Virus record (IMG/VR): IMGVR_UViG_3300022924_000206
Source of the DNA: an uncultured virus (IMG/VR IMGVR_UViG_3300022924_000206)
Taxonomy: Duplodnaviria > Heunggongvirae > Uroviricota > Caudoviricetes
Reading direction: 5' to 3' (one strand)
DNA length: 64,000 bases
Part shown: one piece after another, positions 12,743 through 61,904 of the stretch
How the letters are laid out: each line of letters begins with the position of its first letter
How positions within the stretch are numbered: position 1 is the stretch's first letter
Program-made: the position numbers and the translations under genes
Notes under the pieces: model-generated
The model's input: only the letters and a program-made list of their open reading frames with translations
What the model was told of the DNA's origin: nothing
Databases searched by the model: none

Positions 12743-12786
12743 AGATAGCCCGTAACTTTTCTATTATGAAGCGTTACGGGCTATCT
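12743..12786 (+). terminator. Terminator
   Basis: AGATAGCCCGTAAC / GTTACGGGCTATCT then TTTG. Confidence 0.75.
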
Positions 12787-12822
12787 TTTGTTAGAATAAA
12801 CTAAATAACACTGGAGGTCACT

Positions 12823-13468
12823 ATGACTGGAATCATGCCCAAGGAGTATCTTCACTTTAGTTAGAGGCACTCGTCTTATAACTGGTGAAGAGGCGCTAGA
12901 GCGCCGCTCGACACTAAACTCACTCATCGAAATGAGTGTAACAGCTGGCTTCCAGGAGGTGATACTTCCCTCGCTTCAGCCAGCGGCATTGTTTGCGGAT
13001 AAAGGTGGTCCTGAGCTTCTATCCCAGATGTACGTCTTTCCAGATAAAAAGGGACGAGAGCTAAGTCTTCAGCCGGAGGGTACCGCCGTATGTCAGCTTC
13101 TCGCTCGCACCGAATGGAAAGCTCTAAAGGATGTGAAAATATTCTACGAGACCCGCTGTTGGCGCTATGAGAGACCGCAGGCTGGACGCTATCGTGAGTT
13201 TACACAATTTGGGGTAGAGGTCCTGAACCCTACTAGAGATTATTCGGATGAACTCATTGCTCTAGGTGAAAAAATGGTGAGCACTTTCACTAGCAACTAC
13301 GAGGTGGCTCCGGCGGTGAAGAGAGGCTTAGCCTATTACGTGGAGGACGGGTTTGAAATAGCTTGTCCAAGCTTAGGTGCTCAAAAACAAGTGCTCGGAG
13401 GAGGCGCATACGCCGAAGGGATAGGCTTTGCTTTGGGTGTTGATCGACTAATCTTAGCTAAAGATTAA
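12823..13468 (+). CDS. hisS: Minimal histidyl-tRNA synthetase catalytic domain, predicted +1 frameshift at 12850-12855
   Basis: VRGTR, PEGT, motif 2 WRYERPQAGRYREFTQFGVE, RGLAYY, GGGAY, motif 3 GIGFALGVDRL; the only SD-led ATG (12823) is out of frame with the synthetase. Confidence 0.8.
12841..12855 (+). promoter_or_regulatory. RF2-type +1 frameshift cassette with a His codon
   Basis: AAG GAG TAT CTT CAC compared with E. coli prfB AGG GGG TAT CTT TGA. Confidence 0.7.
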
Positions 13469-13472
13469 ACAG

Positions 13473-13505
13473 AAGTGGCGCCAAGCAATAAACTTGGCGC
13501 CACTT
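13473..13505. terminator. Bidirectional terminator
   Basis: AAGTGGCGCCAAG / CTTGGCGCCACTT. Confidence 0.8.
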
Positions 13506-13516
13506 TAGTGTTTAGT

Positions 13517-14065
13517 TTAGAGTCCCTGGCCGTGCTGAGCTAGCCAAGCCTCGGCCTCCACAATATTTTCGTCGCTAAGCCCCTGTGCTCCATCCGTGTA
13601 GAGGAAACCGAAACCAGGACGGTTGAATAACCCCGTGCGGTCAGTGAATGGAGGATTGTCGTCAATCCAGAGCATCGGCCTTCCTGGAAACTGTGACTCA
13701 AGCTGAGCGGCTTTCCATTCGGGAGAGCGCCCCTTGAGGATTGTTCGCTCCGTGTCCACCGCCACCGGAAGTGTGAAACCAAGGGCCTCACCGAAGTAAG
13801 TGTTAGCCCAGTGCTGCCAGGTGGTCGCCCACTGGACCTCGACGCCACGCTCTAGAAGAAACTGAATCCACTCAACCGCAGGGCGAGAGAAATAGATGTT
13901 TCTTCTACTCTTACCTTTCTTGCTCCAGTTCGGTTGACCATGGAACATGGAGGGATATTCCTCTTTCGAGAACAGGCATTCCACTCTGATGTCATCAGGT
14001 TTAGGATCCCGAAGCGGACGAATCACTCCATCGCAATCGAGAGCAATTATTGGTTTTAGCGTCAA
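13517..14065 (-). CDS. HAD-superfamily phosphatase
   Basis: ALDCDGVI, WATTW, K, WIDD motifs. Confidence 0.85.
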   Translation of the reverse strand: MTLKPIIALDCDGVIRPLRDPKPDDIRVECLFSKEEYPSMFHGQPNWSKKGKSRRNIYFSRPAVEWIQFLLERGVEVQWATTWQHWANTYFGEALGFTLPVAVDTERTILKGRSPEWKAAQLESQFPGRPMLWIDDNPPFTDRTGLFNRPGFGFLYTDGAQGLSDENIVEAEAWLAQHGQGL

Positions 14066-16476: not shown

Positions 16477-17043
16477 TTAGTCATCCAAGCCGTTGTAAAC
16501 AGTTTCAGCCTCGAAAGAATCCAACACCTCCGGTTGCCAATTACGGTGGATCTCGGTGAGGATATAGATCCCAACCTCTCTCCAAGCTTCAAAAATTTCG
16601 TCTTGTGAAATTTCTTTGAGCTCAGCAAGAGTGAATAAGCGAATGTCGGTGGATTCACCATCTTCTGGACTCAACTCGGGCTCTTCGGAAGCGGTGAGCG
16701 CGTACATTATGTCCGTGTGAAAGTGGACCGGCTCAACGGGGTACTGTCCGGTGGAATGGAGAACCGGCTGAGGATGAACCGCCGCATCCGTCAAAGACTT
16801 GATTCGAAGCGGAGGTTGTAGAATGCGAAGTTGGGAGTGGAGATATCCGGTCTCTTCGGTGATCTCGTGAAGGGCAGCCTGCCAGGGAGTCTCATTGAGT
16901 TCAACATGGCCTCCGAACATGGAGAGGCGACCGGTCTTACGGTGAGTGTGGAGGATAAGCTTTGGCTCATCGAAATCTTCTCGAACGATGAAAAAGCTTA
17001 CTGTTGAGTCGTGGTGACCGTTAGCGGTGTGGATATGTGGCAT
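16477..17043 (-). CDS. NUDIX hydrolase
   Basis: GGHVELNETPWQAALHEITEETGY Nudix box. Confidence 0.9.
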   Translation of the reverse strand: MPHIHTANGHHDSTVSFFIVREDFDEPKLILHTHRKTGRLSMFGGHVELNETPWQAALHEITEETGYLHSQLRILQPPLRIKSLTDAAVHPQPVLHSTGQYPVEPVHFHTDIMYALTASEEPELSPEDGESTDIRLFTLAELKEISQDEIFEAWREVGIYILTEIHRNWQPEVLDSFEAETVYNGLDD

Positions 17044-17746: not shown

Positions 17747-18277
17747 TTAGTGAGTAAATGACTCTGCGTTGACTGAGAAGAACGAGTTATACTCAGCTAG
17801 CAGATGAAGGGCGATGGTGCGAGCGTCCGGAGGAATCTGCCCCTCAGGAATTGCTCGAATTTCGTCGGCGGTGAGCCAATAGAGCTCCTGAGATTCATCT
17901 TCCCCGGGAACTCCGTTCGGCTCTTCGCTTGTGACAAAACCGAAAGCCATGTCCGTGTGGAAATGAATAGGATTCTCGCCGGGGAAATCGTGAGTGCGTA
18001 GGGCTACTGGTACGGGATGAACTTCCTCAACCAACCCGGGGATCGGAGCACGAGCCTGGAGCACATCCAATTGAGAGAGCTCGTAGCCAGTCTCCTCTTC
18101 AAGCTCGTGAGTCATGGTTTCCCACGGGTGCTCATTGAGCTCCACGTGGCCGCCGGGCTGAATGAGAATACCAAGCTTCTTGTGGCGGTGGAGTAAGATT
18201 GCCTCTTTGTTCAGATGCACGATGAAAGCGCTCACCGTGAAATCGTGTTGGTTATGTTCCGTATGAATATGTGCCAT
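17747..18277 (-). CDS. NUDIX hydrolase (paralog of 16477)
   Basis: PGGHVELNEHPWETMTHELEEETGY; shared HIHT..HD and HFHTD. Confidence 0.9.
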   Translation of the reverse strand: MAHIHTEHNQHDFTVSAFIVHLNKEAILLHRHKKLGILIQPGGHVELNEHPWETMTHELEEETGYELSQLDVLQARAPIPGLVEEVHPVPVALRTHDFPGENPIHFHTDMAFGFVTSEEPNGVPGEDESQELYWLTADEIRAIPEGQIPPDARTIALHLLAEYNSFFSVNAESFTH

Positions 18278-25316: not shown

Positions 25317-26192
25317 ATGGCTAAGATCGGTTTCCTTGGAGATTTGCACGGCAACATTGCCGCTGCACGCTTCATGGTGTGGTCTATGAGCCAGCTTGGT
25401 GTCAAAACCGCTATTCAGGTCGGAGATTTCGGTCTCTACTCCATGACCGACAGTGTGAAATTTGCCAATAAAGTTAATGAGCTCTGTGAGCGTTTCGGTA
25501 TCACTCTTATTGTGGTTCCTGGTAACCACGAGAACTGGCACCTAGTAAATGAATTGACCGGCAGTGATCGTACTATTCTAGCGGAGTATCGCTCCAGTAT
25601 TTTCATCGCTCCCCGTGGTTACCGCGTCGTTTTCGATGGGATGAGCTTCGTTATGCTCGGCGGTGCTCCGAGTGTTGATCGCAATTGGAGAGCCGCGGCT
25701 GATCGAGATTTTAAGGCTAAGGGTAAAACTCGAGCTAATCAATATTGGTATTGGGAAGAGCAGATTACCGGAGCCGATGTAGATTATGTGGTGGCAGACG
25801 GCTACGCCGATGTGATGGTGTGCCACGATGCTCCCAGAGGGGTTCCCGGTGTAGAGAGCCAGATCAAGGGAAATCCTCATGGTTTCCACGTGGCAGATAT
25901 ACTTTATGCTGAAGAGGGAAGAATTCTGCTAACCGAGGCTTTTGATGCGGTGGCGCCTAAGTTTTTCTTCCATGGGCACTACCATTTTCCGGTGAATGAA
26001 CTAATCAAAACTCCGGGCCACGATAGTTTCACTCAGGTTATTGGACTGGATCGTGAGTTCAATAATTACAGCATGGGAATTTTAGACACGGAGACCCAAA
26101 TCGCCTCCAACATCGACCACAAGGCACTTCTTCGCCAGTTTAGAACAGAAAAGTTCTCCAATTCAACTCTGAGGGATATTGACAATGACTGA
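25317..26192 (+). CDS. Calcineurin-like metallophosphoesterase
   Basis: GDLHG, GDFG, GNHE, HDAP, GHYH. Confidence 0.9.
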   Translation: MAKIGFLGDLHGNIAAARFMVWSMSQLGVKTAIQVGDFGLYSMTDSVKFANKVNELCERFGITLIVVPGNHENWHLVNELTGSDRTILAEYRSSIFIAPRGYRVVFDGMSFVMLGGAPSVDRNWRAAADRDFKAKGKTRANQYWYWEEQITGADVDYVVADGYADVMVCHDAPRGVPGVESQIKGNPHGFHVADILYAEEGRILLTEAFDAVAPKFFFHGHYHFPVNELIKTPGHDSFTQVIGLDREFNNYSMGILDTETQIASNIDHKALLRQFRTEKFSNSTLRDIDND

Positions 26193-32510: not shown

Positions 32511-32879
32511 ATGAAAATCATCAATGAGCAAAACACTCGCTTGAGTGATTCCATCGACGTGCCTATTCGCTTAGTTGAGGGTTACCATAGCGGGGAGCTC
32601 TCCGGTGGTGGGCAAGTCATCGTGATTGTGGGGGATAAACTTCATGTCTACGATGATTCCTCTTCACTTAAACCTGTGGAGACCAAAAGGTCAGTAACCA
32701 TAAGAAGCTTCTCGGGAGTTAAAGAACTCTCCACCGAAAGAATTGTTCTAGGTAAGAGAGGAATCACCTGGTACAAGCGTTTGCAAATAAATCGCAGTGT
32801 GAAAGCAGCATTGGTTCTGCTCGGGGCTGCTCCTAAACGCATCAAAGGACGCGCTAAACCAAAGAGCTGGCTGATTTAA
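32511..32879 (+). CDS. Hypothetical protein
   Basis: ORF with AGGA RBS. Confidence 0.6.
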   Translation: MKIINEQNTRLSDSIDVPIRLVEGYHSGELSGGGQVIVIVGDKLHVYDDSSSLKPVETKRSVTIRSFSGVKELSTERIVLGKRGITWYKRLQINRSVKAALVLLGAAPKRIKGRAKPKSWLI

Positions 32880-33289
32880 AAGAATAGCCAGAGAAGACGT
32901 TCGCTTCTCATTAGCTTCTGAAAGCCTTCATCGTGGTAAAGCGGCCCGGGTTCTCGGGTTCCGTCTTCACGGACAGTGTTCCCCCAGCAGTCGTAGGTGA
33001 AATCACTGGAAAATGTTGTCGGAATCATGGGATTAGAGATCCCACAATATTCCCGAAGTTCCTCCACCGTAATTCGGGTAGCCTCCGCCTGGTAGTGATG
33101 AGCGGAACAGAGCTGTGCCCCGTTGGAGAGATAGTATCCTCCAGCTTCATCATCGGTGAATAGGCGGCGGTTGAGAATATGGTGAGCATCAACCGCCGCC
33201 AAACCACAAGCGGGAACTGCACAGAGACCTTTATTTCGAGCTAATGTGTTCTCTCGAAATTGGGTCCTTGTCAGCAGTTTCTCGCCCAT
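32876..33289 (-). CDS. HNH endonuclease
   Basis: C..C..DAHHI..R....GGY..SNG..LC..HH. Confidence 0.85.
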   Translation of the reverse strand: MGEKLLTRTQFRENTLARNKGLCAVPACGLAAVDAHHILNRRLFTDDEAGGYYLSNGAQLCSAHHYQAEATRITVEELREYCGISNPMIPTTFSSDFTYDCWGNTVREDGTREPGPLYHDEGFQKLMRSERLLWLFF

Positions 33290-39814: not shown

Positions 39815-40330
39815 ATGGAAAAGTTGAGAACAGATGAAGTAGTGAAGAGCGGTTCACCGATTATTAGCGACTTTGACAAGCTAATTTTAGCGGGGATAGC
39901 TCAAGCCGAGAGTGAAAAAGTCTCAACGGAAACCACCCGCGAGGAAAAACTTGGGATCCTGTTTTTGCTTATCCTCGGTGGGCTATTGTATTTTGTAGGT
40001 TTCTTTATTACTCCTTGGCCAATTGAAAGCTATAGCTTCGCTTTTATCCCCGTTTTTGGTGCTCTTCTCTGGGGAAGCATGTTCATAGTCTCGGCTAGAC
40101 TCCGCTGGGAAACGCTTAGCGCTCAAGCAGTTGTTTTAGCATGGGTCTATGTGCCGATGATCGTATTTCTCTCATACTTAGCTAGTACTTTTCTAGCGGA
40201 TGCTCCGAAAAGCGCTTGGAACGATCTTTTTGAAAATCTCACGGTGATCTGGGGCGGGGCAAGCCTGCTATTAGCAGTGCTCATAAGCATTGCGGCCGTG
40301 AAAGAGCTAGTGCTTAGTAAAAGAGCTTAG
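39815..40330 (+). CDS. Four-TM membrane protein
   Basis: Four hydrophobic segments. Confidence 0.75.
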   Translation: MEKLRTDEVVKSGSPIISDFDKLILAGIAQAESEKVSTETTREEKLGILFLLILGGLLYFVGFFITPWPIESYSFAFIPVFGALLWGSMFIVSARLRWETLSAQAVVLAWVYVPMIVFLSYLASTFLADAPKSAWNDLFENLTVIWGGASLLLAVLISIAAVKELVLSKRA

Positions 40331-41486: not shown

Positions 41487-42014
41487 GTGAATAGAACACT
41501 AAAGCTCTCACTCATTAGCCTGACAGCTATAGCCCTCATGGTATTCGTGGTGGTAGCCACTCTTCTTGGTGGGCGTTCAAGCGGCACAACCGATGTGGCT
41601 CCAACCCCGGTGCCTGGAATCACAGCAAATCCCGCTGACGGTGGAGAAAGTGAAAGCTTCTTAGAATCCACTGAAGAGATGCAGCTAGTAATCGGTGCTC
41701 TCGTGGGAGCCTCCGGTGTGAGCACGTGGGTTCCTGAAGAACCGATCGCTACCCAAGAGGAATCACCTTATTGCGATGCTCCTAAGAACACCGTTTGGTA
41801 TCTCACATGGAGTGGGTCCGGTGAAGGCTCTTATGATGTTTTGGCAGACAACCTAATCAACACTTTCGCTAGCAACAGCGATTACACGGTTGAAGAGGTT
41901 TCCCCAGGAGTCGTGGATGTGACCGGTATTAGTGGTTTCCGCGGTGTCGTCACTTGGGATGCAGTTGCCCAGACCGTGAACCTAGAGCTCGTCTCATCCT
42001 GCTACGAAAACTGA
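41487..42014 (+). CDS. Membrane-anchored exported protein
   Basis: N-terminal TM helix; Cys pair. Confidence 0.75.
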   Translation: MNRTLKLSLISLTAIALMVFVVVATLLGGRSSGTTDVAPTPVPGITANPADGGESESFLESTEEMQLVIGALVGASGVSTWVPEEPIATQEESPYCDAPKNTVWYLTWSGSGEGSYDVLADNLINTFASNSDYTVEEVSPGVVDVTGISGFRGVVTWDAVAQTVNLELVSSCYEN

Positions 42015-49171: not shown

Positions 49172-50695
49172 ATGGTACTTATGGCTAATAAGATTACATT
49201 CGAAGAGGGAAAGCTTGTAGTTCCCAACGATCCGATCATTCCTTTTGTGGAGGGTGACGGCATCGGTAAGGACATCACCCCGGCAGTCCAGCGGGTAGTT
49301 GATTCCGCCGTTGCGCGAGCCTACGGTGGCGAAAAGCGCATCGAGTGGCTTGAGGTCTTGGCCGGAGAAAAGGCATTCACCGAGACCGGTGAGTGGCTGC
49401 CCCAGGTCACCGTGGATGCTTTCCGCGATTACCTCGTGAGTATCAAAGGCCCGCTCGGGACTCCCACTGGTAATGGTCACCGTTCAATCAACGTGACTCT
49501 TCGCCAGGAGCTCGACCTTTACGCCTGTGTGCGACCCATCCGTTACTTCGCAGGAGTTCCCGCTCCTGTGAAGCATCCTGAACTTCTCGATGTGACCATC
49601 TTCCGCGAGAACACCGAAGACATCTACGCGGGAATCGAATGGGAGGCCGGCACCAACGAGGCAAAGGTTCTCATCGACATTCTGCAGAACCAGTTCGGTG
49701 TCACCAACATTCGATTCCCCGAGACCTCCAGCATCGGTATCAAGCCGATTTCTCAGGAAGGCTCGGAGCGTCTCATACGGGCTGCTATTCTCCACGCGCT
49801 CACCACCGAGAAGAACACGGTGACCATCGTTCACAAGGGAAACATCCAGAAGTTCACGGAAGGTCGTTTCCTCTCCTGGGGTGAGGAACTCGCCGAGCGT
49901 GAGTTCGGAGCTGAGCTCAAGAGTGGTAAGCTCATCATCAACTCCATGATCGCTGACAACTTCCTACAGCAGGCACTTCTTAACCCTGCTCGTTTCGATG
50001 TTGTGGCTCTCACGAACCTCAACGGTGACTATGCCTCGGACGCTCTCGCGGCTCAGGTGGGTGGTATCGGAATCGCTCCGGGAGCCAACATCAACTACAG
50101 CACCGGCCACGCTCTTTTCGAGGCTACCCACGGCACCGCGCCGGACATCGCTGGCCTCGGCGTGGCAAACCCCTGCTCGCTCCTCCTAAGTGCCGTTATG
50201 CTCCTCGAGTACATCGGTTGGGATGAAGCAGCTAAGCTAATCATCGCAGGGGTAGAGAGCGCAATCGCCAGCGGAAAGGTGACCGGAGATTTCGCTCACC
50301 TGCTGGAAGATGTGAAGGCCGTCAGCACCGAGGAGTTCGCTGACTTCGTTCTCGCTGGATTAGCCGCTGGTGAGCCGATTCGACACATTCTCGATTTCGA
50401 TGCCTACCAGGTTGGTGACAGACTTCTTGATGGTGTGATTTTCAAGGTCGCCATTGACGAGTACGGTCCCAATGATTTCCGAGTAATCTCCATGGAGGCG
50501 GCCGAAGATGCCAAGGCTTATCTCGAGAACAGCCGTATTCGATTGGAGGACTGGTTCCCCTCTGTCAAGGATTACCTGGATGAGATCATCGGTGGTTTTG
50601 CCGATGCAGATGAAGAGCACTCCCTGAAGCTCGAGGTGGAATCCTACGCTGAAGAGTCCGGCGAACCCGGAATTTCGGTGCTTCTAGAGTTCTGA
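49172..50695 (+). CDS. icd: Isocitrate dehydrogenase (homodimeric type) with ~110-aa acidic C-terminal extension
   Basis: [61 protein letters not shown]; alternative start 49181. Confidence 0.95.
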
Positions 50696-53627: not shown

Positions 53628-54347
53628 ATGACCGATCCCGCGCAAGCGAATAAAGGTAATAACCTTTTGTTGATCCCGATAATCGGTGCCCTGGTCACGG
53701 TCATCCTAATACTGATCGTTGTCCTATCCCTGGGTGGTAATAGCAGTTTCGGGATAACCGAGAGCTCCTCCGCTAAGCAGGAGTTGGAGCAAAGGGTTGA
53801 GAGAAGCTTCACTCAAGGATTCTCAGTCCCCGAAAGTCAAGTAACCGTTTCACTCGGTGATGAAGAGCCGCTCGAGCAATATAAGAGTTTGAGAGCTAAG
53901 TCAGTTCTAGTGATTGTTCAACTCAACGGCGAGGAATCTAAGAGTCTCCTCTCGAGTCTAACCGGGCTTCAGAAGGAGTGGCTCTCAACTGGTGGAGATG
54001 TAGTGAAATTAGGAGCATCTTTCGATGTGCCTCTTCTCGGGAAAACCGGGGTCGGTGCCAATCAGGTGGTCTCTGCTCAAGAGGGTAAACTTGTGCTCAC
54101 TCCTGACGCCTTTTATCTTAGCGGATTGAAAGCATCTCTCCAGGATATTCTAAAAATTCCGGTTCTCGGGGATTGGATCAAAGATTTCTCCACCGCCCAA
54201 ACCTATTGTGTTGCTGATAGAGCCCCAGCTGGCTTTACTCTACAAAACGCGAAATTGTCCGGCGAAAAGATAACTTTTACTTTCCAGGCTAAAGAGCAGA
54301 GCCTCGCCGTAGAGGATTTGCAAAGCTTTGGTACCTGCGAGAGCTAA
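53628..54347 (+). CDS. LmeA/DUF2993-like membrane-anchored protein
   Basis: N-terminal TM; VTVSLG..PL.Q; YCVAD..P.G.TL; terminal GTC. Confidence 0.55.
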   Translation: MTDPAQANKGNNLLLIPIIGALVTVILILIVVLSLGGNSSFGITESSSAKQELEQRVERSFTQGFSVPESQVTVSLGDEEPLEQYKSLRAKSVLVIVQLNGEESKSLLSSLTGLQKEWLSTGGDVVKLGASFDVPLLGKTGVGANQVVSAQEGKLVLTPDAFYLSGLKASLQDILKIPVLGDWIKDFSTAQTYCVADRAPAGFTLQNAKLSGEKITFTFQAKEQSLAVEDLQSFGTCES

Positions 54348-58442: not shown

Positions 58443-61171
58443 TACTTTACCTCAACTCTTAGTGTGAGCTGGACCGGGAGAGTGGTTGTGCTCGCCGCGA
58501 TTTTTGCCATGTATTTCGATGCTCCCCAGCCGTAAATGGCTCCACTCTTCGTGATAGCCACCGTATGAGTATCGGAGATACCCACCAAATTCCAAGAGCT
58601 TACTGGAGCTTCAAAAAGCTCCGTGGGCTCCATTAGAATGGGGGATTCCTCTGGGATTAGTCGTCCACTGTGATTATCTCCCCAGCCGTAGAGTTTCCCG
58701 TCAACTACGGCGATGCTGGATTCTCCTCCGGCTGAAATCGTTGTCGCTGGGCCTGGAAGATCAACTTTGAAAATAGTTCTCGGGGTCATTCCTGCGTTCA
58801 TGGCGATGGTGTAGTTAGCAGCGAGCTCCCAAACGGCGCCCTCTTCATCCCGTAGGAGGAAGTGCTTTTCTCCGGCCACGACCTCCACAATCTTTCCCAG
58901 GGTGGAGCCCTCGTTGGGCTTGGCCTCCATGAGTTGGAAGTTATCCGCGTTGCTACCCCACCAGAGCACTCTATTGCTCTCGGTAACAACTACCACGTTG
59001 GTTTGAGCCGAGGCAATTTTTACAACCTTCTCGTCCAACGGAACCCTAACTGGGCTATCGAGAGTAGTTAGCTTTTCACTGATCGCTCCCATCCAGGAAA
59101 GACCCCAGGTCCACACGAAACCATTGGTATCCACCACGTGGGTGGAAAGTCGGCCGGCCGCGATGTCTGAGAACTTCACAAGAGCCTGACGCTCGGGAGC
59201 AAGAATAGCTGCGGAAGGAACTTTACCGGAGCCGCTCAGGATACTAGGAGCACCCCAGAAGTACAGGTAACCCCCACCGGAGGACAAACCCAAAGCCACG
59301 GTGGAGTTAAAACTAATCGCTTTATAGCTTCCCGGAATTTCAGTCAGTCCGGTTGTGGCGCCTTCTCCGCCTTGCCCAGCGATACCTGCGGCATTGCCAC
59401 CCCAGGTGAAAGTTTTACCGTCAGAGCGTAAGCCAGCGCCTGTGGAGGTACCTCCATTGACCGAGGCGAATGATTCATCGCTTATCTTTGTGGGTGATTG
59501 CAGCTTCTTCTCGCCGGATTGAAGTCGGTTAGCGTCATCGTTTTTACCCCAGGTGAAAAGTCCACTAACTGACCCACTAGCAGTCGCCCAGGTGGGACCT
59601 GCGTAGACCCCGCTATAGGTGTCTGTTCCGATTCTTACTAGAGCGTGAGTGTGCGTTTTTTCGTCTAAGCCGAGGCCAGTTTGGCCATTCGTATCGTTAC
59701 CCCAACCATAAAGAGCTCCGGAGGAATCTACCGCAAAAGCGTTTTCACTTCCAACGGAGGCGGTGATAAACTTAAGTCCCTTGCCGATGGCGACCGGAGT
59801 AAGTGACTCGGGGCCAATGGTGGGCTCCTTGATTACTTCCGCCACGATTCCACTAGTATCAGTGAATTTGAACGTAGCATCAATAGCATCCGTGATGGTT
59901 TTGAGCTCAGCCGTTGTCAAATTTTCTACGGTGAGAGGCTCCGGGTTAGCCGTTAACCAAGTATCTCTTTTGTCCTGCCAAACCTTGTGAGCAGCATCGT
60001 ATTGCTCTTGCGCCGTGGGTGGCGGAGGAGTAGGGGTCGGCGTTGGAGTAGGCGTGGTCGGCGGCACGGTGGGAGGAACCACAACCGGAGGTACCGGCTC
60101 AGTGAAATCGCTACGCTTTGGCTCAGGATTGGCGGTGAGCCAAGTTGTATTTTTCTCTGCCCAGACCAGATGAAGCTCAATGAGCTTTTTAGCAACATCC
60201 ACGTCGATTAGTCCCTGACGCCGAAGATCATCCTCAGCTTTGATTGCCGCCTTCTCGTCGGCTACTCTCTTATCTTCGGCGGCCTGTTCTCCACGCCAAT
60301 CTCGGTTATTCCCTAGAAGTGCATTGTCATTTGAGCCCCAGGAGAAGAGCTCACCATCGCTGTTGATCGCTAACACAGTGTCCGAATAAAGCGATGCATA
60401 CACAGAGCGCCAGGAGCCGCCGACCACCACGGAAGGAGTTTGAGAGGAGCTCTTGTTCCCATTACCGAACTGTCCGGAATCATTGGAGCCCCAGCCCCAG
60501 AGTTGCCCGTTACGGTCAATGGCTAGAGCGAAATCGTTGCCGGAGGCAACCGATGAAAATTTCGTGTCCTGAACTATCCAAGTTGGTAAGGGATTCTCCG
60601 TGGAATCACCGGTACCGAGCTGACCGGTTCCGTTGGCGCCCCAGGAGTAAAGTGCTCCGGAAGTGTCCACAGCTAAAGCGAAATCTGTTCCGACTGCAAG
60701 TTTGTCAAAGGAATAAGAAACCGTGAGCTTGTTCGGACGAAGTTTCGATACTTCACTACCGTCACCGAGGGCTGAAGATTGTGGTGAACCCCACATCCAA
60801 ATATCCCCGGCAGCATCGAGAGCTATCACATGTTCTCCGTAAGAGGAGATTTTCTTGATCAGAGGGGGAGTTTCCCCTTCGGCCACCGGAAAAGTCACAG
60901 TCACCCAATCCTGTGAATTGACTATGGTGCCATCCCCGAGCTGACCGAAATTATTGATTCCTTGACTGTAAACCTCACCCTCCGCGGTGAGCACGTAGGA
61001 GGCATCGGCGACCGAGATAATTTGAACCGCGTTGAGTGGTTTCACATCCGTACGGCTAATGGTGGAACCGGCTGAGGAGGAAACAAAGATAAAGGCGGTT
61101 AGGCTAACAACCGCGAGCGCACTAATGGTGGTGTGCCACCAGCGCCAATTTGGTCGATCAATTGTTGACAT
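58442..61171 (-). CDS. RCC1-repeat beta-propeller surface protein with Pro-rich insert
   Basis: Many G.LY.WG.N..GQLG repeats; N-terminal TM; PTPTPTPTPPPP insertion. Confidence 0.9.
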   Translation of the reverse strand: MSTIDRPNWRWWHTTISALAVVSLTAFIFVSSSAGSTISRTDVKPLNAVQIISVADASYVLTAEGEVYSQGINNFGQLGDGTIVNSQDWVTVTFPVAEGETPPLIKKISSYGEHVIALDAAGDIWMWGSPQSSALGDGSEVSKLRPNKLTVSYSFDKLAVGTDFALAVDTSGALYSWGANGTGQLGTGDSTENPLPTWIVQDTKFSSVASGNDFALAIDRNGQLWGWGSNDSGQFGNGNKSSSQTPSVVVGGSWRSVYASLYSDTVLAINSDGELFSWGSNDNALLGNNRDWRGEQAAEDKRVADEKAAIKAEDDLRRQGLIDVDVAKKLIELHLVWAEKNTTWLTANPEPKRSDFTEPVPPVVVPPTVPPTTPTPTPTPTPPPPTAQEQYDAAHKVWQDKRDTWLTANPEPLTVENLTTAELKTITDAIDATFKFTDTSGIVAEVIKEPTIGPESLTPVAIGKGLKFITASVGSENAFAVDSSGALYGWGNDTNGQTGLGLDEKTHTHALVRIGTDTYSGVYAGPTWATASGSVSGLFTWGKNDDANRLQSGEKKLQSPTKISDESFASVNGGTSTGAGLRSDGKTFTWGGNAAGIAGQGGEGATTGLTEIPGSYKAISFNSTVALGLSSGGGYLYFWGAPSILSGSGKVPSAAILAPERQALVKFSDIAAGRLSTHVVDTNGFVWTWGLSWMGAISEKLTTLDSPVRVPLDEKVVKIASAQTNVVVVTESNRVLWWGSNADNFQLMEAKPNEGSTLGKIVEVVAGEKHFLLRDEEGAVWELAANYTIAMNAGMTPRTIFKVDLPGPATTISAGGESSIAVVDGKLYGWGDNHSGRLIPEESPILMEPTELFEAPVSSWNLVGISDTHTVAITKSGAIYGWGASKYMAKIAASTTTLPVQLTLRVEVK

Positions 61172-61904
61172 GAGTTTTTTCTTCCTGCTCAACTGCGGCC
61201 GGAGGTGCGGAATCTATTATTTTCATCAATGACTGAGCCTGAGTTGGGATTTCTTTCTTCATGCGATGCCACCAGCGCTTTTTACTGTAAGTCGGAGGAA
61301 GCGGATAACCTTTTTCCTCGAAAAGATCAGAGAGCACCGTAATCTGGTTCTCTTTGCTGAACGGCTCAAGTTTCTTGAACCATGGATCAGTATCTTTGTC
61401 GTTGGATTTGAAACCATAGATACGAAGAGCCACCACCATGGCTAAGAATAGGAGACTCAAAAAACCTATGAGAAGAGTAGGAAACGGGGAATCGGAAATC
61501 TTATTGAGCGGATCCCCGAGAAAAGGAACAGAGAGAAGATGCTTGTGGGTGATACCACTAAGTTCGTAATTCCACTCATCCGGAGTCTCGAAAGCAGGGG
61601 CCTTTAGTGTCACGATTGCTGAGCCATTGTCGGCCTTATCCACGTGGATTATCTGGCCCAAGGTGGAACCACCGGCATCGTGAGATCCTACGAGAATAAC
61701 ATCTCCCTCCTTTATGGAGGAGGTCGGAACTTGCTGTGCGATTTCTAGAGAACCCTTAAAGGCTAACGGGGCTGCGGAACCGTCCGAAATAACCGCGAAT
61801 CTAACGTAACCAAGAGCAGAGGCTAAAGCTAAAACTCCGAAGAGGATTGAGGAGACAGCGACGATCCAAAAGATCACAGCTGGAAGCTTATTCCGCAATT
61901 TCAT
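61158..61904 (-). CDS. SipW/S26-like signal peptidase homolog (divergent)
   Basis: TM, AVISDGSAAP..KGSL, IKEGDVI, TLK...PD.W.Y, SVPFLG, TM. Confidence 0.6.
   Translation of the reverse strand: MKLRNKLPAVIFWIVAVSSILFGVLALASALGYVRFAVISDGSAAPLAFKGSLEIAQQVPTSSIKEGDVILVGSHDAGGSTLGQIIHVDKADNGSAIVTLKAPAFETPDEWNYELSGITHKHLLSVPFLGDPLNKISDSPFPTLLIGFLSLLFLAMVVALRIYGFKSNDKDTDPWFKKLEPFSKENQITVLSDLFEEKGYPLPPTYSKKRWWHRMKKEIPTQAQSLMKIIDSAPPAAVEQEEKTHVNN

What the first reader, a model, noticed from the sequence alone, without database searches (positions are those of the whole stretch)
12813..12870. RF2-style +1 frameshift cassette rewired to a histidine codon controls a phage HisRS
Seen: a GGAGGT Shine-Dalgarno (12813-12818) precedes ATG 12823, but that frame reads MTGIMPKEYLHFS and stops at TAG 12862-12864. 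The HisRS-like N-terminus (TLVRGTRLITGEEALERR...) lies in the +1 frame. That frame is closed upstream by TGA 12824 and has no ATG, GTG or TTG until 12932, after the conserved RGT-R segment. The junction reads AAG GAG TAT CTT CAC. Known: the E. coli prfB (RF2) +1 site is AGG GGG TAT CTT TGA, with an internal SD, a 3-nt spacer, a CUU slippery P-site codon and a slowly decoded A-site codon. Here the geometry is the same but the A-site codon is CAC (His). Inference: when charged tRNA-His is scarce the ribosome pauses at CAC, tRNA-Leu slips from CUU to UUC, and a ~214-aa synthetase is made. That would be a feedback loop producing HisRS only when His-tRNA is limiting, for example after host tRNA or synthetase sabotage. 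I know of no described aminoacyl-tRNA synthetase regulated this way.
Basis: partly seen in the sequence, partly recalled or inferred. Interest (0 to 1): 0.95.

Follow-up and report, generated by a model that had tools for sequence, protein, structure and literature searches.

The report
Histidine-sensing frameshift in mini-HisRS gene
A small histidyl-tRNA-synthetase-like gene of a large phage can only be made if the ribosome slips forward one base at a histidine codon; the same arrangement is kept in dozens of relatives and looks like a built-in gauge of charged histidine tRNA.

Summary
ATG 12823 opens a 13-codon frame that stops at TAG 12862. The HisRS-like body (204 codons, to 13468) lies in the +1 frame and has no start before 12932. 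The junction reads AAGGAG-TAT-CTT-CAC.

This is not an assembly error. Of 247 related loci examined, 60 (53 unique genes) need the same +1 shift. They come from jumbo phages, metagenomes, sequenced Pseudomonas, Paraburkholderia and Thalassospira genomes, and a megaplasmid. All 53 carry [C/G]TT-CAY in the permitted overlap, and 48 have a Shine-Dalgarno-like run 3-4 nt upstream. The cassette sits at six different codon positions. Background for in-frame NTT-CAY is 5 in 15,763 codon pairs.

The frameshifted genes are almost free of histidine: 2 His in 9,466 codons, and 50 of 52 bodies have none. The sensor codon is therefore usually the only His codon in the message. tRNA-His is the commonest neighbouring tRNA gene.

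The protein is a HisRS catalytic core. It lacks the insertion and anticodon-binding domains.

Best reading: an RF2-style programmed +1 frameshift, with a hungry His codon as sensor, produces an emergency mini-HisRS. The response to charged tRNA-His is inferred, not shown. My literature searches found no description of this. It is a new variant of a known kind, of high interest.

The parts
12813..12818 (+). Shine-Dalgarno GGAGGT for initiation of the 0 frame
   Evidence: Read from the sequence. It ends 4 nt before ATG 12823.
12823..12864 (+). 0-frame leader ORF, MTGIMPKEYLHFS, ending at stop TAG 12862-12864. Only its first 10 codons (12823-12852) would enter the full product.
12841..12846 (+). 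Internal Shine-Dalgarno-like stimulator AAGGAG, 3 nt (TAT, the E-site codon 12847-12849) upstream of the slip codon
   Evidence: An SD-like run with a 3-nt spacer is present in 36 of 53 unique frameshifted homologues and with a 4-nt spacer in 12. It is absent at the homologous place in 0 of 12 unshifted homologues of the same clade.
12850..12855 (+). Shift site CTT CAC. CTT (Leu) is the proposed P-site codon that re-pairs on TTC. CAC (His) is the proposed slow A-site sensor codon.
   Evidence: TTCA is invariant in 44 of 44 unique 36-mers. [C/G]TT-CAY is present in 53 of 53 unique genes.
12854..13468 (+). +1-frame body: 204 codons (TLVRGTR...LILAKD) plus stop 13466-13468. It is a HisRS catalytic core without a single His codon.
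   Evidence: P0001. Pfam PF13393 63.6 bits. PDB profile search gives bacterial HisRS at E 1e-39. AlphaFold2 pLDDT 89. Foldseek finds E. coli and T. thermophilus HisRS at TMq 0.82-0.85. His count.
13472..13506 (.). Terminator-like hairpin (14 pairs), found on both strands, closing the gene

Best explanation
The gene encodes a 214-residue mini histidyl-tRNA synthetase, a class II HisRS catalytic core without the insertion and anticodon-binding domains. Its synthesis requires a programmed +1 ribosomal frameshift ten codons after the start.

Proposed mechanism:
1. The ribosome initiates at ATG 12823.
2. When CUU (12850) is in the P site, the internal AAGGAG pairs with the anti-Shine-Dalgarno of 16S rRNA only 3 nt upstream, as at the RF2 (prfB) site.
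3. The A site holds the histidine codon CAC.
4. If His-tRNA(His) arrives quickly, the ribosome stays in frame and terminates three codons later at TAG, releasing a 13-residue peptide.
5. If charged tRNA(His) is scarce, the pause lets peptidyl-tRNA(Leu) re-pair from CUU to UUC. Decoding then continues in the +1 frame at ACU and the enzyme is made.

The enzyme would recharge tRNA(His), so the circuit is a negative feedback like that of RF2, with an aminoacyl-tRNA as the sensed species instead of a release factor. The body of the message contains no His codon, so it can be translated to the end under the very shortage that switches it on.

Shown here:
- the ORF architecture;
- conservation of the cassette at six positions;
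- His-specificity of the A-site codon;
- His-free bodies;
- the HisRS fold and motifs;
- tRNA-His neighbours.

Inferred:
- that the shift happens on NUU/CAY rather than one codon earlier or later;
- that its rate depends on His-tRNA(His);
- that the product aminoacylates tRNA(His).
For: 1. A shift is required and is not an artefact. Of 247 related loci, 60 (53 unique genes) have the conserved N-terminal segment (M-L-R-G-T-R...) in one frame and the catalytic body in the +1 frame. They come from IMG/VR, metagenomes, GenBank phage Phosso, 12 prokaryotic genome records including sequenced Pseudomonas, Paraburkholderia and Thalassospira strains, and a Paraburkholderia megaplasmid.

A +1 shift restores exactly the register of unshifted homologues. 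The distance from the motif to the conserved Pro is 35 residues in shifted genes and in 21 of 32 unique unshifted genes measured, and 32 in the other 11. In L020 the two frames overlap by only 5 nt, which confines the shift to GTA/GTT-CAC-TGA.

2. The cassette. In 53 of 53 unique genes the overlap holds one in-frame [C/G]TT-CAY: CTT 36, GTT 17; CAT 42, CAC 11. An SD-like run lies 3 nt upstream in 36 and 4 nt upstream in 12. Background is 5 of 15,763 codon pairs, and 471 candidate pairs were available in 29 unique shifted genes.

The site sits at six codon positions: 38 (the window), 19, 18, 14, 10 and 5 residues before the conserved Pro. On the tree, shift versus no shift needs at least 9 changes and the position classes at least 13. 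Unshifted homologues of the same clade have no SD-like run at the homologous place (0 of 12), and at the homologous Arg position 1 of 12 has CGG and none has AGG (CGT 4, CGC 2, CGA 1, AGA 1; the other three are not Arg).

3. His logic. The post-shift bodies hold 2 His in 9,466 codons, and 50 of 52 complete bodies have none. For comparison:
- unshifted homologues: 68 of 15,999;
- 51 full-length HisRS: 234 of 22,238;
- other ORFs of the window: 353 of 16,977.

4. The product is HisRS-derived.
- PDB profile search: bacterial HisRS E 1e-39 against HisZ 6e-16, with motif 2, RGL-YY, GGG-Y and motif 3 aligned.
- AlphaFold2 pLDDT 89 and Foldseek TMq 0.82-0.85 to E. coli and T. thermophilus HisRS.
- 32 invariant columns over 21 sequences fall in these motifs.

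5. tRNA-His(GUG) is the commonest tRNA within 1.5 kb: 38 of 282 predicted tRNAs, the next most frequent having 14. It is present in 28 of 108 sequences, and 29 of 32 unique genes encode G at -1.

6. The prfB site is CUU_U with UGA in the A site and a GG_GGG or GG_AGG stimulator. Slow A-site decoding is the general trigger of +1 shifts (passages of PMC5009743).
Against: - No experiment, RNA or peptide data exist. No RNA run was listed.
- The window's own site position (38) is unique among the 53 genes, so for this gene the argument rests on the cassette's identity with those of relatives at other positions.
- 76 unique homologues have a continuous ORF, so the switch is dispensable.
- 4 of 53 lack a recognisable SD-like run, and 12 have a 4-nt spacer.
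- GUU (17 of 53) re-pairs on UUC with a first-position mismatch.
- The C of CAY is needed for re-pairing whatever the amino acid, so only the A-Y part speaks for histidine.
- ORF structure alone also allows a shift one codon earlier (incoming Phe-tRNA on UUC) or one codon later (after His). Only the first still involves a pause unrelated to His.
- More synthetase does not help if free histidine itself is missing, so the physiological trigger (loss of host HisRS activity or of host tRNA-His, or demand from phage tRNA-His) is unknown.
- Unshifted relatives are also His-poor, so His avoidance is partly a family trait.
- Aminoacylation by a core without an anticodon-binding domain is not shown.
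Confidence: 0.72

Rival explanations
1. A programmed +1 frameshift occurs but is constitutive. The His codon would be just a conveniently slow or context-favourable A-site codon, setting a fixed low yield of the enzyme with no feedback from His-tRNA supply.
For: The C at the first A-site position is required for re-pairing on UUC irrespective of the amino acid. tRNA-His could be generally slow to arrive. Many relatives do without the cassette (76 unique continuous genes). No data here show regulation.
Against: Among C-starting codons, only CAY is seen in 53 of 53 genes at six positions. The gene is a HisRS homologue. The bodies are purged of His, 2 in 9,466 codons. Fixed-ratio expression would not select for that.
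Confidence: 0.17
2. The +1 shift happens by another route at the same hexamer. One option is out-of-frame binding of Phe-tRNA to UUC before NUU is read. Another is four-base reading of CAYN (or NUUC) by a special, possibly phage-encoded, tRNA.
For: The narrowest overlap (L020, 5 nt) allows three shift points. All three give the same protein length. These phages carry large tRNA sets.
Against: The SD-like run is 3 nt from NUU, which is the prfB geometry for NUU in the P site. The 38 tRNA-His genes found beside the gene were called as ordinary GUG-anticodon tRNAs, and no four-base anticodon was reported among 282 tRNAs. Chromosomal copies in Pseudomonas and Paraburkholderia have no tRNA genes nearby. 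Invariance of A-Y is unexplained if Phe-tRNA binding drives the shift.
Confidence: 0.06
3. There is no frameshift in this window. The protein starts in the +1 frame at a non-canonical codon (CTG 12827, 8 nt after the GGAGGT) or at ATG 12932, and the cassette is a coincidence.
For: CTG 12827 is well spaced from the Shine-Dalgarno. ATG 12932 opens a 178-residue ORF that gene callers would pick. The window's site position is not shared by any relative.
Against: ATG 12823 shares the same Shine-Dalgarno. A start at 12932 removes the conserved RGTR segment and first helix that the HisRS profiles align from position 1. An SD-NNN-CTT-CAC cassette falling by chance inside a 35-nt overlap of this particular gene family is very improbable, given 5 of 15,763 for NTT-CAY alone. 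The nearest relatives (L004, L029, L030, L031) all need the shift.
Confidence: 0.03
4. The frame break is an assembly error or marks a decaying pseudogene, or the gene is split into two separately made polypeptides.
For: Only one run, possibly the source, covers the junction, and it is held as contigs rather than raw reads. One relative, L027, is broken in a different way and looks like a pseudogene.
Against: 60 loci from independent assemblies and sequenced bacterial strains have the break. The bodies keep 32 invariant catalytic-motif columns. The break always coincides with the same hexamer. No start codon lies near the junction in the +1 frame. In L010, L017, L019 and L020 the first one is 28 or more codons downstream.
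Confidence: 0.02

Closest known systems
Autoregulatory +1 frameshift of bacterial release factor 2 (prfB)
   Same: A short 0-frame leader, with the functional protein in the +1 frame. A Shine-Dalgarno-like stimulator (GG_GGG or GG_AGG) 3 nt before a CUU P-site codon. A slowly decoded A-site codon. The product would relieve the pause, giving negative feedback. In the largest group of relatives the site is at codon 27-28, against codon 26 in E. coli prfB. The prfB features come from passages of PMC5009743 and PMC3711429.
   Different: The A-site codon is a sense codon (CAY, His), not UGA. Re-pairing is on UUC, not UUU. GUU can replace CUU. The sensed species would be an aminoacyl-tRNA, not a release factor. 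The site has moved among six positions in the gene.
Hungry-codon +1 frameshifting: Ty1, ABP140 (CUU_AGG_C) and EST3 (CUU_AGU_U) in yeast, and starvation-induced shifts in E. coli
   Same: A CUU P-site codon followed by a slowly decoded sense codon. The rate is set by supply of the cognate aminoacyl-tRNA (passages of PMC5009743).
   Different: The yeast cases have no rRNA-mRNA stimulator, the limiting tRNA is a constitutively rare one, and the product does not act on it. The E. coli cases are errors, not programmed gene expression.
Sensing of charged tRNA(His) by ribosomes on the his operon leader peptide, and T-box control of synthetase genes (recalled, not checked in any call)
   Same: Expression of histidine-related or synthetase genes is tied to the charging level of the cognate tRNA.
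   Different: Those act on transcription termination through RNA structures. This one would act within the coding sequence by changing reading frame.
Canonical HisRS (hisS) and its paralogue HisZ
   Same: The class II catalytic fold and HisRS motifs: LxPEGT, motif 2 RYExPQxGRYREFxQFG, RGLxYY, GGGxY and motif 3 GxGFAxGxxR.
   Different: About 210 residues against about 420. No insertion domain and no anticodon-binding domain. Below the cut-offs of both the hisS and hisZ equivalog models. RefSeq labels one copy as HisZ, which the profile scores do not favour.

Membership tests
prfB-type programmed +1 frameshift cassette | ORF architecture: a short 0-frame ORF ending in a stop, with the functional body in the +1 frame and no start of its own | tested here: met
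   for the window. 60 of 247 related loci share it.
prfB-type programmed +1 frameshift cassette | Shine-Dalgarno-like stimulator 3 nt upstream of the P-site codon | tested here: met
   AAGGAG-TAT-CTT in the window. 3-nt spacer in 36 of 53 unique genes and 4-nt in 12.
prfB-type programmed +1 frameshift cassette | CUU in the P site, able to re-pair in the +1 frame | tested here: met
   CTT at 12850 with the next base C. CTT in 36 and GTT in 17 of 53.
prfB-type programmed +1 frameshift cassette | UGA stop codon in the A site, sensed by RF2 | tested here: not met
   The A-site codon is CAC in the window and CAY in 53 of 53. It works like prfB but is not a member of that family.
prfB-type programmed +1 frameshift cassette | Measured frameshifting that responds to the level of the product | not testable with these tools
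   No reporter, proteomic or ribosome-profiling data. No RNA run was listed.
Histidyl-tRNA synthetase catalytic domain (Pfam PF13393, tRNA-synt_His) | Score above the curated cut-off | tested here: met
   63.6 bits against a cut-off of 25, E 2.4e-17.
hisS equivalog (TIGR00442), a complete HisRS | Full-length match, including the anticodon-binding domain, above the cut-off | tested here: not met
   144 bits against a cut-off of 286.75. The PDB alignment covers HisRS residues 6-156 and 232-318 only.
HisZ (TIGR00443), regulatory subunit of ATP phosphoribosyltransferase | Score above the cut-off, and closer to HisZ than to HisRS | tested here: not met
   63.4 bits against a cut-off of 271.65. HisZ structures score E 6e-16 against HisRS at 1e-39.
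Active class II aminoacyl-tRNA synthetase | Histidine activation and charging of tRNA(His) | not testable with these tools
   Only conservation of motifs and the fold could be checked.

The most novel reading that the evidence does not exclude
This would be a natural, widespread riboregulator-free sensor of one aminoacyl-tRNA. A ~16-nt SD-NNN-NUU-CAY cassette converts shortage of His-tRNA(His) into a +1 frameshift that switches on a histidine-free emergency mini-HisRS. In jumbo phages the gene is paired with the phage's own G-1 tRNA-His genes and sits near RNA-repair genes, so it would serve as a rescue module against host or competitor attack on tRNA-His or HisRS. In Pseudomonas and Paraburkholderia it would be a stand-by synthetase. 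It would be the first synthetase shown to be autoregulated by recoding, and the first sense-codon counterpart of the RF2 circuit.
Probability: 0.6. Interest if true: 0.93.

Novelty: new variant of a known kind. Interest (0 to 1): 0.9.

Why it matters
If frameshifting here responds to His-tRNA(His), the RF2 principle (the ribosome measures how fast its A site is filled and changes frame accordingly) is used in nature for a sense codon and for an aminoacyl-tRNA synthetase.

- It adds a new way of regulating synthetases, beside T-boxes, attenuators and translational operators.
- It gives a compact, portable sensor of tRNA charging for one amino acid.
- It explains why dozens of genes in public records are annotated as N-terminally truncated HisRS or as HisZ.
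- It bears on how jumbo phages keep translation going. The gene lies among phage tRNA arrays.
- It occurs in sequenced, culturable strains and in an isolated Sinorhizobium phage, so it can be tested directly.

Tried and rejected
- **Whole genome.** None is held for this window, so the phage's own tRNA set could not be read. The window itself has no tRNA gene.
- **DNA-level search of GenBank phages.** No match.
- **Sequencing runs.** No RNA holder was listed. Only one run, possibly the source and held as contigs, spans the junction. Runs X2-X4 do not cover 12759-12911. Raw reads could therefore not be examined for an indel.
- **PHROGs.** No family for the protein.
- **Four-letter translation CTTC=L.** It gives the expected MTGIMPKEYLTLVRGTR... 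but shifts again at a second in-frame CTTC (residue 48), so it cannot print the whole product.
- **Other class II synthetase-like genes in five jumbo phage genomes (four at 100% and one at 90% estimated completeness).** In the longest ORFs my script picked in 7 of 12 loci I saw normal His content (6-23) and no cassette. For three of them (L191, L193, L198) the longest-ORF pick may not be the synthetase gene. I found no sign that the device is general to phage synthetases, but the sample is small.
- **Promoter scan.** No sigma-70-like site.
- **Earlier findings of this scan.** Nothing relevant.
- **L027.** A frame break of another kind with about 40 residues missing. I set it aside as a probable pseudogene and left it out of all counts.
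- **First classification regex.** It missed IRGTRF-type N-termini. Seven loci were rescued by hand. Three loci (L100, L132, L179) stay unclassified.
- **Rejected ideas.**
  - Transcriptional slippage: no homopolymer at the site.
  - Termination-reinitiation: no start codon near the junction.
  - Frequent TGA after CAY as a second sensor: it follows from the +1 frame encoding Ile/Thr-Glu/Asp, and 25 of 53 genes have a sense codon there.
Full report
**The observation.**
- GGAGGT lies at 12813-12818.
- ATG 12823 opens MTGIMPKEYLHFS, which stops at TAG 12862-12864.
- The +1 frame is closed by TGA 12824-12826, then open from 12827 to the stop at 13466-13468. It has no ATG, GTG or TTG before 12932.
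- The junction reads AAG GAG TAT CTT CAC (12841-12855).
- The two frames overlap by 35 nt.
- A 14-pair terminator-like hairpin, found on both strands, follows the gene at 13472-13506.

**What the gene encodes.** The +1 frame (P0001) matches Pfam tRNA-synt_His at 63.6 bits, E 2.4e-17.

A profile of 21 family members (A1) was searched against solved structures.
- Bacterial HisRS came first: 1qe0 at E 1.1e-39, then 5e3i, 1adj and 1kmm.
- The match has two stretches, covering HisRS residues 6-156 and 232-318.
- The insertion domain and the C-terminal anticodon-binding domain are therefore missing.
- HisZ structures score far lower (3od1, 6.4e-16).

The protein falls below NCBIfam's cut-offs for both hisS (144 against 286.75 bits) and hisZ (63.4 against 271.65).

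AlphaFold2 gives a confident model, pLDDT 89.0 and pTM 0.85. Foldseek superposes it on E. coli and Thermus HisRS catalytic domains at TMq 0.82-0.85.

The 32 invariant columns of A1 lie in LxPEGT, motif 2 (RYExPQxGRYREFxQFGVE), RGLxYY, GGGxY and motif 3 (GxGFAxGxxR). That these correspond to the histidine- and ATP-binding residues of E. coli HisRS is recalled from the literature and was not checked in a call.

The window is phage-like. Many ORFs hit PHROG families, most have no Pfam family, and the nearest relatives of the gene lie on 400-580-kb IMG/VR contigs.

**The frame break is shared.** tblastn against GenBank phages found Sinorhizobium phage Phosso.
- Its annotated 'histidyl-tRNA synthetase' CDS begins at an internal ATG.
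- Upstream, a good Shine-Dalgarno and an ATG open MLRGTRVISGNEARAYTNAIDTLRGCLHRS*, which lies in the frame one base behind the body.
- Its junction is cGAGGT-TGT-CTT-CAT. This is the window's cassette at a different place in the protein.

I then collected relatives from five sources:
- IMG/VR;
- metagenome contigs (497 relatives, best 80 kept);
- one genome per prokaryotic species (592 relatives, best 80 kept, most of them ordinary archaeal HisRS);
- plasmids;
- GenBank phages.

The 247 sequences with a tblastn hit were classified as follows (seven added by hand).

| Class | Loci | Unique genes |
|---|---|---|
| Need the +1 shift | 60 | 53 |
| Continuous short genes | 91 (plus L252 by eye) | 76 |
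| Full-length HisRS | 71 | – |
| Cut by a contig end | 21 | – |
| Unclassified | 3 | – |

L027, which is broken differently, was left out.

The 60 shifted loci come from these sources:

| Source | Loci |
|---|---|
| Metagenome contigs | 27 |
| IMG/VR | 18 |
| Prokaryotic genome records | 12 |
| Phosso | 1 |
| Paraburkholderia sprentiae megaplasmid | 1 |
| The window | 1 |

The 12 genome records are:
- Thalassospira xianhensis;
- Pseudomonas fragi, P. cerasi and Pseudomonas sp. Au-Pse12;
- four Paraburkholderia species;
- one Burkholderiales MAG and three myxobacterial MAGs.

Assembly error and decay are therefore excluded.

**The cassette.** In each of the 53 unique genes, the stretch where a +1 shift is permitted contains one in-frame [C/G]TT-CAY.

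| Feature | Counts among 53 unique genes |
|---|---|
| P-site codon | CTT 36, GTT 17 |
| A-site codon | CAT 42, CAC 11 |
| Next codon | stop 28, sense 25 |
| SD-like run (GGAGG, AGGGGG, GGAG and the like) upstream | 3 nt in 36, 4 nt in 12, 6 nt in 1, absent in 4 |

Over 44 unique 36-mers, the four bases TTCA are invariant and positions -9 to -4 read [C/A]GG[A/G]G[G/C].

Background rates are far lower.
- In-frame NTT-CAY occurs in 5 of 15,763 codon pairs of 81 unique gene bodies.
- It occurs in 1 of 2,302 pairs in the N-terminal regions of 37 unique continuous homologues, and [C/G]TT-CAY never occurs there.
- The first 29 unique shifted genes offered only 471 candidate pairs.

In L020 a TAG in the +1 frame and the TGA of the 0 frame leave 5 nt of overlap. 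The shift must therefore happen on GTA/GTT-CAC-TGA.

The 12 continuous homologues inside the main shifted clade have no SD-like run at the homologous place. At the homologous Arg position only one has CGG and none has AGG (CGT 4, CGC 2, CGA 1, AGA 1; three are not Arg), whereas shifted genes mostly carry CGG or AGG there. The stimulator therefore goes with the shift, not with the protein sequence.

**The site moves.** I measured the site from the first post-shift codon to the conserved Pro of the 'LP' motif.

| Position | Unique genes |
|---|---|
| 38 | the window only |
| 19 | 2 |
| 18 | 3 |
| 14 | 1 |
| 10 | 45 |
| 5 | L030 |

A +1 shift restores the register of continuous genes exactly.

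A quick maximum-likelihood tree was built from 68 short genes with three long HisRS as outgroup.
- All 19 AT-rich continuous genes fall on one side.
- A mixed clade of 49 falls on the other, 33 shifted and 16 continuous.
- Shift versus no shift needs at least 9 changes, and the position classes at least 13.
- The window's nearest relatives (L004 at 70% identity, then L029, L030, L031, L006) are all shifted, at four other positions.

Many branches have low support, so the number of independent origins is not fixed. Even so, one hexamer recurring at six places is hard to explain without selection for the hexamer itself.

**Why histidine.** Re-pairing of a G34 tRNA from NUU to UUC needs a C after the P-site codon, so the first base of the A-site codon is fixed by mechanism. 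The next two bases are not, yet they are always A and a pyrimidine.

His content supports the same reading:

| Gene set | His codons / all codons | Note |
|---|---|---|
| Post-shift bodies of shifted genes | 2 / 9,466 | 50 of 52 complete bodies have none; the window's has none |
| Continuous relatives | 68 / 15,999 | 45 of 76 have none |
| Full-length HisRS from the same scans (51) | 234 / 22,238 | never fewer than one His |
| Other ORFs of the window | 353 / 16,977 | |
| ORFs flanking the shifted genes | 523 / 16,437 | |

In most shifted genes the sensor is thus the only His codon of the message. That is what one expects of a protein that must be completed while His-tRNA is short.

tRNA-His(GUG) is also the most frequent neighbour of the gene.
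- It accounts for 38 of 282 tRNAs predicted within 1.5 kb; the next most frequent has 14.
- It is present beside the gene in 28 of 108 sequences.
- 29 of 32 unique tRNA-His genes encode G at -1.
- Most have C73; four have A73.

**Mechanism proposed.** The geometry is that of prfB, whose features I took from passages of PMC5009743 and PMC3711429:
- a CUU_U shift site;
- UGA in the A site;
- a GG_GGG or GG_AGG stimulator;
- a short leader, with the stop at codon 26 in E. coli;
- slow A-site decoding as the trigger.

Here the A-site codon is His. I propose the following.
1. The rate of arrival of His-tRNA(His) competes with slippage of peptidyl-tRNA(Leu/Val) onto UUC.
2. Abundant His-tRNA leads to termination a few codons later.
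3. Scarce His-tRNA leads to the +1 frame and to synthesis of the enzyme, which restores charging.

I recall from the older literature, without checking here, that a prfB cassette with sense codons in the A site frameshifts in competition with aminoacyl-tRNA selection in E. coli (Curran and Yarus). I also recall that a HisRS catalytic fragment retains some specific activity (Augustine and Francklyn).

The steps shown and inferred are separated in the Best explanation section. The main open points are these:
- which codon is in the P site at the moment of the shift;
- whether the product charges tRNA;
- what makes His-tRNA scarce.

Candidates for the last point are loss of host HisRS, attack on host tRNA-His, and demand from phage tRNA-His. 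The window also holds RNA-repair-type genes, which I note only as context:
- an HAD_SAK_2 protein next door;
- an RNA-ligase-like ORF;
- a metallophosphoesterase;
- two NUDIX proteins.

**Novelty.** The literature searches gave the following.

| Search terms | Result |
|---|---|
| histidyl-tRNA synthetase + programmed frameshift + phage | 0 papers |
| frameshift + histidyl-tRNA synthetase + jumbo phage | 0 papers |
| Phosso + Sinorhizobium | 0 papers |
| HisRS + frameshifting + Shine-Dalgarno | 3 papers, unrelated by title and abstract |

Passages found by term search in three papers also gave nothing.
- **2016 recoding review (PMC5009743).** The first 300,000 characters are held. 'Synthetase' occurs nine times. 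The places shown concern the MS2/Qβ replicase, and none shown concerns an aminoacyl-tRNA synthetase.
- **GeneTack survey (PMC3711429).** It lists one 'tRNA synthetase' cluster, classed as phase variation, and nothing on histidine.
- **Huge-phage paper (PMC7162821).** It mentions phage synthetases and tRNAs but has no occurrence of 'frameshift' or 'histid'.

Subscription journals and supplements were not searched. Public annotation misses the shift. Phosso's CDS starts internally, and RefSeq calls the P. sprentiae copy an 'ATP phosphoribosyltransferase regulatory subunit' starting in the +1 frame.

**Verdict.** I rate it a new variant of a known kind: RF2-type autoregulatory +1 frameshifting, with a sense codon and a synthetase. 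Interest is 0.9.

| Claim | Confidence |
|---|---|
| A programmed +1 shift is required | above 0.9 |
| It senses His-tRNA(His) and feeds back through the product | about 0.7 |

Noticed in passing
window 13520-14065 (-), 32879-33289 (-), 25317-26189 (+), 16480-17043 (-), 17750-18277 (-): RNA-repair-type genes lie around the mini-HisRS gene. An HAD_SAK_2 protein ('Swiss Army Knife RNA repair' HAD domain) is the immediate downstream neighbour. There are also an RNA-ligase-like ORF (phrog_24030), a metallophosphoesterase and two NUDIX hydrolases. This may point to a tRNA damage-and-rescue context.
   Followed up: no
window 39815-40327 (+), 41487-42011 (+), 53628-54344 (+): Three further ORFs of 171-239 residues contain no histidine at all, against 2.08% His in the window's other ORFs. 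None has a Pfam or PHROG family. They could be other proteins built to be made under His-tRNA shortage, or chance.
   Followed up: no
L189 2444-3055 (Paraburkholderia sprentiae pl1WSM5005); L001 1471-2061 (phage Phosso): Public annotation misses the frameshift. RefSeq names the P. sprentiae copy 'ATP phosphoribosyltransferase regulatory subunit', with a start in the +1 frame. GenBank starts Phosso's 'histidyl-tRNA synthetase' at an internal ATG. Both lose the conserved MLRGTR N-terminus.
   Followed up: partly
L114-L118, L120, L141 (Pseudomonas and Paraburkholderia genome contigs): The frameshifted mini-HisRS also occurs outside phages. In the two loci scanned (L114, L118) it is a lone gene beside GNAT, F420-type oxidoreductase and pirin genes. 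No tRNA genes lie nearby in any of the seven loci. These are culturable carriers for experiments.
   Followed up: partly
L027 1414-1830: An AT-rich homologue (22% G+C locus) has a frame break without the CAY cassette and lacks about 40 residues between the 'MMF' region and motif 2. It is probably a pseudogene or a misassembly.
   Followed up: no
L066 58-146, L068 401-491, L072 1290-1379: Three phage tRNA-His(GUG) genes are 89-91 nt long, with an extra stretch after the anticodon arm. This could be a long variable arm or an intron-like insert. Four other tRNA-His genes (L049, L057, L058, L063) have A rather than C at the discriminator position.
   Followed up: no
window 12747-12782: A 10-bp inverted repeat (AGCCCGTAAC ... 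GTTACGGGCT, 16-nt loop) followed by ATCTTTT lies between the upstream gene (ends 12732) and the mini-HisRS start. It was read.
   Followed up: no
window 49172-50692 (+), 58445-61192 (-): There are two unusual cargo genes for a phage: a 507-residue isocitrate/isopropylmalate dehydrogenase-family protein (Pfam E 3.5e-90) and a 916-residue RCC1-repeat protein.
   Followed up: no
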